The notes beneath the pieces are model-generated. The model saw only the letters and a list, made by a program, of their open reading frames with translations, had not been told where the DNA came from and did no database searches. From NCBI RefSeq assembly GCF_003334255.1, contig NZ_QOWU01000141.1: 2,037 nucleotides of DNA; one strand, 5' to 3'. Both the position numbers and the translations under genes were made by a program. Of the stretch, positions 1 through 2,037 are shown in pieces (position 1 is the stretch's first letter; each line of letters begins with the position of its first letter). This stretch comes from Escherichia coli. Its GTDB lineage: Bacteria > Pseudomonadota > Gammaproteobacteria > Enterobacterales > Enterobacteriaceae.

Positions 1-846
1 AACCAGATGGACCCGGTGTACACGCCGGCGCGAAAAATCCACCTGTACCACTGCGACCATCGCGGCCTGCCGCTGGCGCTCATCAGCACGGAAGGGGCAA
101 CAGCGTGGTGCGCAGAATATGATGAATGGGGCAACCTGCTGAATGAAGAGAACCCGCATCAGCTGCAGCAGCTTATCCGGCTGCCGGGGCAGCAGTATGA
201 TGAGGAGTCCGGCCTGTATTACAACCGCCACCGCTATTATGACCCGCTGCAGGGGCGATATATCACTCAGGATCCGATTGGACTGAAGGGGGGATGGAAC
301 CTGTATGGATATCAATTGAATCCGATATCAGACATCGACCCCCTGGGTTTATCTATGTGGGAGGATGCAAAATCGGGGGCATGTACTAATGGTCTTTGCG
401 GCACACTATCCGCTATGATAGGTCCAGATAAATTTGATTCTATAGATAGCACCGCATATGACGCCTTAAATAAAATAAATAGCCAATCTATTTGCGAAGA
501 TAAAGAGTTCGCTGGTTTAATATGTAAGGATAATAGTGGCAGATATTTCTCAACAGCACCTAACCGAGGAGAAAGAAAAGGATCATATCCATTCAATAGC
601 CCTTGCCCTAATGGTACTGAGAAAGTATCAGCTTATCATACTCATGGTGCAGATAGTCATGGAGAATATTGGGACGAAATATTTTCAGGTAAAGATGAGA
701 AAATAGTTAAAAGTAAAGATAACAATATCAAGTCATTTTATTTAGGTACGCCCAGTGGTAATTTTAAAGCAATAGATAACCACGGGAAGGAAATAACAAA
801 CAGAAAAGGATTACCTAATGTCTGCAGAGTTCATGGTAATATGTAA
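1..846 (+). CDS. rhsA: Rhs-family polymorphic toxin, C-terminal portion (5' end lies upstream of the window): end of conserved core plus variable C-terminal toxin tip
   Basis: The frame is open from base 1 (aac cag atg...), so the M at 7 is internal. The translation ...[35 protein letters not shown]...DIDPLGL is the hallmark end of the E. coli Rhs core. GC is about 58% in bases 1-60 and about 32% in bases 421-480, the typical core/tip contrast. Stop TAA at 844-846. The rhsA symbol is inferred only from the yibA-like gene downstream; the core is nearly identical among rhs paralogues, so it could be another rhs copy. Confidence 0.9.
352..846 (+). other. Variable Rhs C-terminal toxin domain (Rhs-CT), about 165 aa, function unknown
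   Basis: Everything after DPLGL (codons at 337-351) is AT-rich and not recognisably core. It contains 7 cysteines ([37 protein letters not shown]) and a His-rich patch, [16 protein letters not shown] cannot assign a toxin family from sequence alone. Confidence 0.75.
806..810 (+). promoter_or_regulatory. Shine-Dalgarno-like AAGGA for the immunity ORF, located inside the toxin coding sequence
   Basis: AAGGA with a 7-nt spacer to ATG 818. Confidence 0.5.
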
Positions 847-1201
847 AAAAATATTGTTTAGGAACTGTGTCATTGTATCTTTGTTTGTTTTTACATACAA
901 CACATGGGCGCAGTGTAATAATAATATTAAAATAATGCGCAAGTATGAAAGTGAAGGTAAATATACCGTTAGAAATTTGGTTAAAAATAAAGCTATAGCA
1001 TTGGAATTAGCTGAGATATATGTTAAGAATCGTTATGGACAGGATGCCGCAGAAGAAGAAAAACCATACGAAATCACTGAGTTAACAACAAGTTGGGTTG
1101 TTGAAGGTACCATTCACTCAGACCAAATTGCTGGTGGGGTTTTTATTATAGAAATAGGCAAAAATGATGGGAGAATTCTGAATTTTGGCCACGGAAAATA
1201 A
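818..1201 (+). CDS. Putative cognate Rhs immunity protein (RhsI), possibly NTF2-fold-like, with a possible N-terminal signal peptide
   Basis: 127-codon ORF in AT-rich DNA, where chance ORFs are short. AAGGA at 806-810 sits 7 nt before ATG 818. It overlaps the toxin stop by 29 nt, the usual toxin-immunity arrangement. The N-terminus [23 protein letters not shown] is hydrophobic. The C-terminal part ([17 protein letters not shown]...PYEI...SWVVEGT...[22 protein letters not shown]) resembles the motif pattern I recall for NTF2-fold immunity proteins. Alternative starts are ATG 833 and ATG 935. Confidence 0.7.
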
Positions 1202-1292
1202 GTATGTAAGGATAATCAAACATCGTGTGCGCTGATGGCAGAGTAGGTGGAGGACTCCAGACAGTCAAACGATAGAAAAAGATAGCCTTTAT

Positions 1293-1297
1293 GGAGG
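1293..1297 (+). promoter_or_regulatory. Shine-Dalgarno GGAGG for the yibA-like gene
   Basis: GGAGG with an 8-nt spacer to ATG 1306. This favours 1306 over the upstream in-frame ATG at 1291. Confidence 0.6.
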
Positions 1298-1305
1298 TTC
1301 CTGCA

Positions 1306-1689
1306 ATGTCAAATACATACCAGAAAAGAAAGGCAAGTAAAGAGTATGGTTTATATAATAAATGTAAGAAACTAAATGATGATGAATTATTTCGCTTACT
1401 TGATGATCGCAATTCCTTGAAAAGGATTTCATCTGCCAGAGTATTACAGTTAAGAGGGGGGCAAGACGCTGTTAGATTGGCAATTGAATTCTGCACTGAC
1501 AAAAATTATATCCGTAGAGATATCGGAGCATTTATACTCGGGCAAATATAAATTTGCAAAAAATGCGAAGATAATGTTTTTAATATTTTTAACAATATGG
1601 CATTGAATGATAAGAGTGCTTGCGTTCGAGCTACGGCAATCGAGTCAACGGCCAGGGAAAGATCATCAAAAGTTCACTTTTTGCACTAA
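1306..1689 (+). pseudogene. yibA: yibA-like HEAT-repeat protein (putative Rhs-associated immunity or lethality-reduction protein), disrupted by an in-frame stop and a 3' truncation
   Basis: Translation from ATG 1306 (MSNTYQKRKASKEYGLYNKCKKLNDDELFRLLDDRNSLKRISSARVLQLRGGQDAVRLAIEFCTDKNYIRRDIGAFILGQI) matches my recollection of the E. coli YibA N-terminus. TAA at 1549-1551 interrupts the frame. The same frame then continues as ICKKCEDNVFNIFNNMALNDKSACVRATAIESTA, still YibA-like, before changing to RERSSKVHFLH and stopping at 1687-1689. Full-length YibA is about 280 aa as I recall; only about 128 codons are present. Confidence 0.75.
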
Positions 1690-1784
1690 ATAATTCGCAT
1701 TTTATGTTTAAAAATTGAGATATTCCTTATTACCTGAAGCTGTTTTTTATTGCTTATACATGATCAAATACTCCTTACCTAATT

Positions 1785-1790
1785 AAGGAG
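1785..1790 (+). promoter_or_regulatory. Shine-Dalgarno AAGGAG for the ISAs1-family transposase
   Basis: AAGGAG with a 6-nt spacer to ATG 1797. Confidence 0.65.
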
Positions 1791-1796
1791 AACAAA

Positions 1797-2037
1797 ATGG
1801 AACTTAAAAAATTGATGGAACATATTTCTATTATCCCCGATTACAGACAAACCTGGAAAGTGGAACATAAATTATCGGATATTCTACTGTTGACTATTTG
1901 TGCCGTTATTTCTGGTGCAGAAGGTTGGGAAGATATAGAGGATTTTGGGGAAACACATCTCGATTTTTTGAAGCAATATGGTGATTTTGAAAATGGTATT
2001 CCTGTTCACGATACCATTGCCAGAGTTGTATCCTGTA
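1797..2037 (+). CDS. ISAs1-family transposase (H-repeat-associated protein), N-terminal 80 codons, 3' end beyond the window
   Basis: Translation [80 protein letters not shown] closely matches the N-terminus of E. coli H-rpt proteins (YhhI/YdcC/YbfD family) as I recall them. No stop occurs before the window ends. Confidence 0.9.

What the first reader, a model, noticed from the sequence alone, without database searches (positions are those of the whole stretch)
1202..1305. Relatively GC-rich spacer between the immunity gene and the yibA-like gene
The 104-bp spacer has a GC-rich centre (catcgtgtgcgctgatggcagagtaggtggaggactccagacagtc, roughly 55% GC) flanked by coding DNA of about 33% GC. It may be a recombination scar where the CT/immunity cassette was joined to the yibA module, or it may hold a promoter for the downstream gene. 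I see no convincing sigma70 -35/-10 pair or terminator hairpin in it.
Basis: seen in the sequence. Interest (0 to 1): 0.3.

Follow-up and report, generated by a model that had tools for sequence, protein, structure and literature searches.

The report
Recombination scar in Rhs toxin locus
The 104-bp gap is a patchwork scar left when one toxin/immunity cassette replaced another at an E. coli Rhs locus, and its GC-rich middle is leftover Rhs core and toxin coding DNA; this is an ordinary by-product of a known process, not a new element.

Summary
Window 1202-1305 is a 104-bp non-coding gap, and its centre (1221-1266) is 58.7% GC against about 34% around it. One stretch inside the yibA fragment is equally GC-rich.

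The window is E. coli K-12 rhsB-yhhH-yrhC(yibA-like)-ISEc1, not rhsA. The gap is a mosaic of four pieces.
- 1202-1208: tail of the DUF4329-tip/yhhH cassette.
- 1209-1253: decayed 5' edge of an orphan Rhs core fragment, which explains the GC. Related contigs (L024-26) continue from here into an intact core fragment.
- 1254-1285: last 10 codons plus TAG of an RhsA-type (Ntox34) toxin tip.
- 1286-1305: native 20-bp rhsA-yibA gap with yibA's GGAGG.

The homology breakpoint is 1253/1254, inside the GC-rich centre. About 2975 of 5426 complete E. coli genomes carry this same junction, at the rhsA or the rhsB chromosomal site. 1756 keep the intact RhsA-tip-yibA cassette.

The "recombination scar" reading is supported. 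No sigma-70 consensus promoter, terminator, Rfam family or unusual RNA fold was found. Transcription starts could not be checked.

This is an instance of the known Rhs tip-displacement process, so interest is low.

The parts
1..349 (+). 3' end of the conserved, GC-rich Rhs core of rhsB (57% GC), up to the DPxGL...DPLGL boundary
   Evidence: Identical to K-12 rhsB.
350..846 (+). RhsB-type variable toxin tip (DUF4329), AT-rich
   Evidence: Pfam PF14220, E = 8e-40. 36% GC.
818..1201 (+). yhhH, an Imm-NTF2-2 family immunity-type gene that overlaps the rhsB end by 29 nt
   Evidence: PF15631.
1202..1208 (+). Tail of the tip/yhhH cassette (GTATGTA), shared with distant yhhH-type cassettes
   Evidence: Homology to the Salmonella and other cassettes (L012, L019-23, 77-78% identity) ends at window 1208.
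1209..1253 (+). Decayed 5' edge of an orphan Rhs core fragment. The GC-rich part is 1221-1253 (60.6% GC). The old core frame reads ..S C A L M A E * (TAG 1244-1246). GGTGGAGG lies at 1246-1253.
   Evidence: In L024-26 the homologous linker continues past GGAGG into ATG plus a core fragment. The L024 linker against Rhs core gives z = 8.8, 0 of 1000 shuffles, and alignment A3 shows the colinearity. The window 33-mer against core directly is 69% identical, z = 2.2-3.0.
1253..1254 (.). Recombination or deletion breakpoint, with at most 1 nt of microhomology (A1254)
   Evidence: Alignments A1 and A2. BLAST end-points are 1254 on both sides.
1254..1285 (+). Remnant of an RhsA-type (Ntox34) toxin tip: the last ~10 codons (..S R Q S N D R K R) plus TAG at 1283-1285
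   Evidence: 94% identical to the end of K-12 rhsA (HSRQSNDKKR*). The Ntox34 model reaches residue 194 of the last 199.
1286..1305 (+). Native 20-nt rhsA-yibA intergenic leader, with Shine-Dalgarno GGAGG at 1293-1297, 8 nt before the ATG
   Evidence: Same 20-nt gap in K-12 rhsA-yibA (L006 1018-1037) and in L002.
1306..1652 (+). yibA-like pseudogene (yrhC, b4552): 97% identical to yibA, with a TAA at 1549-1551, cut by ISEc1
1652..2037 (+). Left end of ISEc1 (H-repeat) with the start of the transposase gene yhhI (ATG 1797)
   Evidence: window 1652-1700 matches the ISEc1 end in L010.

Best explanation
The gap is a non-functional recombination scar made of four pieces of older DNA.

The likely history is as follows. 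An Rhs locus once carried an RhsA-type (Ntox34) toxin tip followed 20 bp later by its immunity gene yibA. A foreign cassette then took over the end of the rhs gene. It consisted of a DUF4329 tip, yhhH, a short linker and the edge of the next orphan core fragment. Almost all of the old toxin tip was lost. This happened either at that moment, by an illegitimate right-hand join, or afterwards, by a roughly 0.7-kb deletion of the displaced core fragment plus tip.

What remains between yhhH and yibA is the cassette tail, about 45 nt of decayed Rhs core (GC-rich because Rhs cores are GC-rich), the last 32 nt of the old toxin gene, and yibA's own 20-nt leader with its ribosome-binding site.

What is shown:
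- the mosaic structure;
- the breakpoint at 1253/1254;
- the existence of both unrecombined 'parent' continuations;
- the wide distribution of this one junction.

What is inferred:
- the order and number of steps;
- that the only working signal left is yibA's Shine-Dalgarno, with yibA (where intact) transcribed by read-through from rhs-yhhH, since no terminator intervenes.

In this window yibA is a pseudogene, so even that signal is idle.
For: - **Locus.** The window is 100% identical to K-12 rhsB-yhhH-yrhC-yhhI.
- **Right side.** Window 1254-1652 is 97% identical to K-12 rhsA-3'end/yibA. The homology starts abruptly at 1254, which corresponds to 32 nt before the rhsA stop.
- **The retained tail is toxin coding sequence.** Ntox34 covers RhsA up to 5 residues from its end.
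- **RhsA-tip and yibA are one cassette.** yibA neutralises the toxic RhsA C-terminus (Vlazny & Hill 1995, as cited in PMC3150448).
- **Left side.** L024-26 (YhhH relative, 83% aa identity) are 88-89% identical to window 223/442-1254. They then continue into ATG plus an Rhs core fragment instead of the rhsA tail.
- **The linker is core-derived.** z = 8.8, 0 of 1000 shuffles; colinear with the codons W-L-A-Q-C-G-L-T-V.
- **Other relatives.** More distant yhhH relatives are followed directly by orphan core fragments after the same TATGTA tail.
- **Composition.** The core is 57% GC and the remnant 60.6%.
- **Distribution.** 2971 of the 2979 genomes with the yhhH end run through the same junction. 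About 2975 carry the whole gap. 1756 keep the intact RhsA-tip-yibA junction.
- **Two chromosomal sites.** The same gap sits at the rhsA site with full-length yibA in strain M1. Two alleles differing by 3 SNPs share the junction.
- **No other element.** No promoter consensus, terminator, Rfam hit or unusual fold was found. A 3'-end mapping study lists no RNA 3' ends there.
- **Fit to the literature.** The pattern matches the published tip-displacement model (PMC2935791).
Against: - No intermediate (yhhH-linker-core fragment-RhsA tip-yibA) was found in 5426 E. coli genomes, in two metagenome scans, or in the contigs fetched.
- Direct similarity of the window's 33-45-mer to Rhs core is only marginal (z = 2.2-3.0; no signal with a stricter scoring). 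Its core origin rests on transitivity through L024-26, which are short contigs from unidentified organisms.
- One nucleotide of microhomology says nothing about the joining mechanism.
- The absence of a promoter rests on consensus scans only. A weak sigma-S RNA polymerase SELEX peak lies about 20-130 bp away.
Confidence: 0.85

Rival explanations
1. The gap contains a promoter, perhaps sigma-S dependent. It would give the downstream orphan immunity gene yibA (or the yrhC/yhhI region in K-12) its own transcription, independent of rhs.
For: Genomic SELEX lists a weak sigma-S holoenzyme peak (intensity 3.3) between yhhH and yhhI at old-MG1655 coordinate 3621930, which is about window 1328 by my conversion (PMC5493296). 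A lenient scan finds TGGCCA(1186)-19 nt-GATAAT(1211-1216), 9 of 12 matches.
Against: The consensus scan finds no site in 1202-1305, and finds fewer sites in 700-2037 than in shuffles (3 against 6.3). The lenient candidate has a poor 19-nt spacing and lies at the AT-rich edge, not in the GC-rich centre. The SELEX peak is weak, was measured in vitro, has roughly 100-bp resolution, and is centred inside the AT-rich yibA fragment. No TSS data could be retrieved.
Confidence: 0.1
2. The gap is ordinary, vertically inherited intergenic DNA belonging to a single yhhH-yibA operon. The GC bump is then a chance fluctuation.
For: The gap is highly conserved (at least 97%) wherever yhhH and yibA are adjacent. 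An equally GC-rich 46-mer occurs inside the yibA fragment.
Against: Each half has an independent continuation elsewhere. The 3' half is the end of the rhsA coding sequence in 1756 genomes. The 5' half continues into an Rhs core fragment in L024-26. Homology breaks sharply at 1253/1254.
Confidence: 0.03
3. The GC-rich centre encodes a structured RNA, a small peptide or a protein-binding site that acts on yhhH or yibA expression.
For: GGTGGAGG (1246-1253) looks like a ribosome-binding site. TGGAG-GA-CTCCA spans the junction as a short inverted repeat.
Against: No start codon follows GGTGGAGG in the window; in L024-26 it precedes the orphan's ATG, which has been deleted here. Fold z-scores are 0.08 and 0.48. 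There is no Rfam match at E <= 1. The inverted repeat has a 2-nt loop and cannot form a hairpin.
Confidence: 0.02

Closest known systems
Rhs C-terminal tip displacement and orphan arrays (Jackson et al. 2009, PMC2935791; orphan rhs-CT/rhsI modules, Poole et al. 2011, PMC3150448)
   Same: An incoming tip/immunity cassette takes over the end of the rhs gene. The earlier immunity gene (yibA) persists downstream. Core-derived DNA marks the start of the displaced unit. The GC-rich core contrasts with AT-rich tips. The same arrangement is shared by many strains.
   Different: In the model, the displaced tip survives intact behind a core fragment. Here nearly all of it has gone: about 45 nt of core edge and 32 nt of toxin 3' end remain, leaving an immunity-only orphan. 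The intact intermediate was not found.
K-12 rhsA-yibA toxin/immunity cassette (Vlazny & Hill 1995, cited in PMC3150448)
   Same: Window 1254-1652 is 97% identical to the end of rhsA, the 20-nt gap and the first 347 nt of yibA. The Shine-Dalgarno and its spacing are the same.
   Different: Only the last 10 codons of the toxin are present. yibA here carries a premature TAA and is cut by ISEc1 (pseudogene yrhC).
K-12 rhsD-ybbC-ylbH and Salmonella yhhH-like arrays (immunity gene followed directly by an orphan core fragment)
   Same: A YbbC/YhhH-family immunity gene is followed within a few nucleotides by GC-rich Rhs core DNA.
   Different: There the core fragment continues for hundreds of bases into another tip. 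In the window it stops after about 45 nt. The 10-nt match to ylbH (GCGCTGATGG) turned out to be coincidental, because it falls at a different core position.

Membership tests
Recombination junction within an Rhs tip/immunity array | The left flank is continuous with one cassette type in independent genomes | tested here: met
   Window 223/442-1254 is 88-89% identical to L024-26, and 704-1208 is 77-78% identical to the Salmonella and other cassettes.
Recombination junction within an Rhs tip/immunity array | The right flank is continuous with a different cassette type, with an abrupt change of homology | tested here: met
   Window 1254-1652 is 97% identical to K-12 rhsA-3'end/yibA, with no homology upstream of 1254.
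Recombination junction within an Rhs tip/immunity array | Unrecombined continuations of both sides exist elsewhere | tested here: met
   The linker continues into a core fragment in L024-26. The rhsA tip continues upstream in 1756 genomes.
Recombination junction within an Rhs tip/immunity array | Core-derived DNA lies at the head of the displaced unit | tested here: met
   By transitive homology: L024 linker against core, z = 8.8, 0 of 1000 shuffles. The window 33-mer against core directly is only 69% identical, z = 2.2-3.0.
Recombination junction within an Rhs tip/immunity array | An intermediate with the whole displaced tip (core fragment + Ntox34 tip + yibA behind yhhH) is observed | tested here: not met
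   Not found in E. coli complete genomes, in two metagenome scans or in the fetched contigs. This does not define the family, but it would fix the number of steps.
Sigma-70 type promoter | -35 and -10 hexamers at 16-18 nt spacing | tested here: not met
   No site in 1202-1305. The best lenient candidate has a 19-nt spacing, 9 of 12 matches.
Sigma-70 type promoter | A mapped primary transcription start | not testable with these tools
   The TSS tables were truncated or not held.
Intrinsic terminator | A GC-rich hairpin followed by a T run | tested here: not met
   None in the gap. No RNA 3' ends are listed there in PMC7815308.
Known structured RNA (Rfam) | A covariance-model match | tested here: not met
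   0 matches at E <= 1 over the whole window. Fold z-scores are 0.08 and 0.48.
RhsA-tip (Ntox34) / YibA toxin-immunity cassette (for window 1254-1305 plus yibA') | The tail codons belong to the toxin domain, and the immunity gene follows after 20 nt with its own SD | tested here: met
   Ntox34 PF15606 covers residues 120-194 of the last 199. The gap and SD are identical in layout to K-12 rhsA-yibA. The immunity function itself comes from the literature only.

The most novel reading that the evidence does not exclude
The loss of the displaced toxin, with its immunity gene and Shine-Dalgarno left flush against the new cassette, was selected rather than accidental. On this reading it is a route by which Rhs loci purge orphan toxins but keep a read-through-expressed stock of old immunity genes. 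The scar, possibly helped by a weak sigma-S promoter nearby, would then be the expression link for orphan yibA in roughly half of E. coli strains.
Probability: 0.15. Interest if true: 0.35.

Novelty: already known. Interest (0 to 1): 0.15.

Why it matters
It matters little beyond bookkeeping. The result gives a base-resolved example of how Rhs toxin tips are swapped in the best-studied bacterial genome. It explains a compositional oddity as leftover coding DNA. It shows that K-12's rhsB downstream region was inherited from an rhsA-type locus. For annotation, 1254-1285 should be read as a toxin-gene remnant, and yrhC as an orphaned, then inactivated, immunity gene. If orphan yibA is expressed through this scar in strains where it is intact, those strains would stay immune to Ntox34-armed neighbours. 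That would be a modest but testable ecological consequence.

Tried and rejected
- **ylbH idea.** I first thought the GC-rich piece matched the start of the K-12 ylbH core fragment, through a shared GCGCTGATGG. The multiple alignment later showed that the 10-mer lies at a different core position, so it is coincidence.
- **Strict similarity test.** A strict Smith-Waterman test of the 45-mer against all loci then held gave no signal (23 against 22.7 +/- 1.9). The homology appeared only through the bridging loci L024-26.
- **Genome-contig scan with YhhH.** It returned only two identical copies on mis-binned MAG contigs.
- **Two metagenome pattern scans.** These looked for the linker with a different continuation and found nothing.
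- **Search for an intermediate.** I checked P0048, P0056, H136 and H152. All showed either the same junction or main rhsA genes with internal deletions.
- **TSS look-ups.** The Cappable-seq table was truncated, ROSE had no entry, and Thomason 2015 is not held.
- **Hill-lab papers.** PMC176749 and PMC176868 are not held, so I cannot say whether this junction was described in the 1990s.
- **14-nt repeat.** TATGTAAGGATAAT (521-534 and 1203-1216) has p of about 0.03 and is not conserved as a pair, so it is probably chance.

Full report
**What the window is.** The 2037-base window is 100% identical to the E. coli K-12 rhsB region. RefSeq annotation places the following features:
- the rhsB 3' end, up to 846;
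- yhhH at 818-1201;
- a yibA-like pseudogene (yrhC, b4552) from 1306;
- the ISEc1 transposase gene yhhI from 1797.

It is rhsB (between nikR and yhhJ). The same yhhH-gap-yibA arrangement does occur at the rhsA chromosomal site in other strains (strain M1).

**The observation.** The gap 1202-1305 is 104 bp and 45% GC. The quoted centre lies at 1221-1266 and is 58.7% GC. yhhH is 33.3% GC and the yibA fragment 35.0%. Only 0.3% of 46-nt windows in the AT-rich part of the window reach that value, but 1616-1661 inside the yibA fragment ties it. The bump is real, but composition alone would not prove anything.

**Right half of the gap.** In genomes with a K-12-type rhsA, only the 3' part of the gap is present, and the homology starts abruptly at window 1254.
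- 1254-1285 matches the last 32 nt of the rhsA coding sequence. rhsA reads HSRQSNDKKR-stop; the window reads SRQSNDRKR-stop, with TAG at 1283-1285.
- 1286-1305 is the native 20-nt rhsA-yibA gap, with GGAGG at 1293-1297, 8 nt before the ATG.
- From 1254 to 1652 the window is 97% identical to K-12 rhsA-end/yibA.

The RhsA C-terminus is an Ntox34 toxin domain whose Pfam model reaches to five residues from the end. The retained codons are therefore genuine toxin coding sequence. The literature reports that yibA neutralises the toxic RhsA C-terminus (Vlazny & Hill 1995, as cited by Poole et al. 2011, PMC3150448). RhsA-tip, the 20-nt gap and yibA are thus one native toxin/immunity cassette, and the window holds its truncated remains.

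**Left half of the gap.** In E. coli, 2971 of the 2979 genomes that have the yhhH 3' end run straight through the same junction. The donor context therefore had to be sought elsewhere, using contigs that encode YhhH relatives.

The more distant relatives (65-72% aa identity; Salmonella L012 and L019-23) share homology with the window only up to 1208, seven bases past the stop codon. In most of them (not L022) a GC-rich orphan Rhs core fragment then follows directly.

The closer relatives L024-26 (83% aa identity; 88-89% DNA identity over 800-1000 nt) share the whole 5' half of the gap, including the GC-rich stretch. Their homology ends exactly at 1253/1254. After GGAGG they continue AGGTGTGC-ATG into an orphan Rhs core fragment ([19 protein letters not shown]...) carrying an unrelated tip.

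That linker is itself decayed Rhs core. It is colinear with the core codons W-L-A-Q-C-G-L-T-V that lie upstream of the [11 protein letters not shown] anchor. Its alignment score is 20.75 against 8.2 +/- 1.4 for shuffles, with 0 of 1000 shuffles reaching it (z = 8.8).

The window's own 33-mer is 69% identical to the core at the same position. Taken alone, that is only marginal (z = 2.2-3.0). Its core origin therefore rests on the chain window -> L024 -> core.

This explains the GC content: the Rhs core is 57% GC, and the remnant at 1221-1253 is 60.6%.

**Anatomy of the gap.**

| Window coordinates | What it is |
|---|---|
| 1202-1208 | Cassette tail |
| 1209-1253 | Decayed 5' edge of an orphan core fragment (old frame S-C-A-L-M-A-E-stop) |
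| 1253/1254 | Breakpoint, with at most 1 nt of microhomology |
| 1254-1285 | Tail of an Ntox34 toxin gene |
| 1286-1305 | yibA leader with its Shine-Dalgarno |

It consists of the core remnant plus the first bases of the toxin tail.

**History (inferred).** The pattern fits the published tip-displacement model, in which an incoming tip with its immunity gene and some core DNA shunts the resident tip downstream (Jackson et al. 2009, PMC2935791).

In this case the resident RhsA tip was almost entirely lost. That happened either in the same event, through an illegitimate right-hand join, or later, through a deletion of roughly 0.7 kb. I found no intermediate that would decide between the two.

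The junction arose once. Two alleles that differ by three SNPs (1216, 1230, 1286) share it. It is present in about 2975 of 5426 complete E. coli genomes, at either the rhsA or the rhsB chromosomal site. 1756 genomes keep the intact RhsA-tip-yibA junction, and K-12 has both.

In the window, the orphaned yibA was later inactivated by a TAA at 1549-1551 and by ISEc1 at about 1652.

**Function.**
- No sigma-70 consensus promoter or terminator lies in the gap.
- A lenient scan gives only TGGCCA-19 nt-GATAAT at the AT-rich 5' edge.
- There is no Rfam match, and folding is no better than shuffles (z = 0.08 and 0.48).
- A 3'-end mapping study lists no RNA ends there.
- The only experimental hint of promoter activity is a weak in-vitro sigma-S RNA polymerase peak near window 1328 (PMC5493296). 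The coordinate conversion is mine.
- TSS tables could not be consulted.

The GGTGGAGG at 1246-1253 is the counterpart of the motif that precedes the orphan's ATG in L024-26. In the window nothing follows it.

The most likely working content of the gap is therefore just yibA's own Shine-Dalgarno. It would be used, where yibA is intact, on read-through transcripts from rhs-yhhH. That is inference, and it is moot in K-12 rhsB.

**Comparison and verdict.** This is an instance of a known process in a heavily annotated locus. The scar interpretation is right. The promoter alternative is unsupported but not experimentally excluded. The base-level dissection, and in particular the point that the GC-rich piece is a core-fragment edge, may not have been spelled out before. 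I could not read the 1990s Hill-lab papers to check. It does not change the understanding of Rhs systems, so interest is low.

Noticed in passing
L024 761-900 (also L025, L026): The orphan Rhs core fragment behind the yhhH relative has an SD-like GGAGGAGG and an ATG. Both were created inside what was core coding DNA (the QMDP/QIEP codons). This orphan toxin fragment may therefore have its own translation start signals.
   Followed up: partly
window 1771-1790: The inverted repeat CTCCTTAATTAGGTAAGGAG covers the Shine-Dalgarno of the ISEc1 transposase gene yhhI (ATG 1797). The scan scored it as a minus-strand terminator-like site. It could be a hairpin that limits transposase translation.
   Followed up: no
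window 521-534 and 1203-1216: A 14-nt exact direct repeat, TATGTAAGGATAAT, occurs once inside the rhsB tip and once right after the yhhH stop. It has p of about 0.03 in Markov simulations and is not conserved as a pair in related cassettes, so it is probably chance.
   Followed up: yes
window 1549-1551 and ~1652: The yibA-like gene (yrhC) carries an A>T change that makes a TAA where yibA has AAA. It is also cut by the left end of ISEc1 at about 1652. That makes two independent inactivating events.
   Followed up: partly
window 1291-1308: A at 1291 (G in rhsA-type loci) creates an in-frame ATG 15 nt upstream of the yibA ATG, overlapping the Shine-Dalgarno. This is why the mechanical ORF list starts the ORF at 1291.
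   Followed up: no
window 818-846: The yhhH start codon lies 29 nt inside the end of rhsB. This overlapping toxin/immunity arrangement suggests coupled expression.
   Followed up: no
window ~1328 (U00096.2 3621930): A published genomic SELEX lists a weak sigma-S RNA polymerase binding peak between yhhH and yhhI (PMC5493296). The position falls in the AT-rich start of the yibA fragment.
   Followed up: partly
L010 3332-8657 (strain M1, rhsA chromosomal site): ISEc1 is inserted in the middle of the main rhs core in this strain. In K-12 it sits in yibA'. The same IS therefore hits Rhs loci at different points.
   Followed up: no
L004 / L014-16 / L033-35: Long orphan stacks lie upstream of the yhhH-like gene: a hypothetical gene, an NTF2 immunity gene, DUF6258 and pentapeptide fragments. 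The yhhH variant there is about 10% diverged, yet the gap itself is 97% identical. This suggests the gap and yibA region were homogenised by recombination.
   Followed up: no
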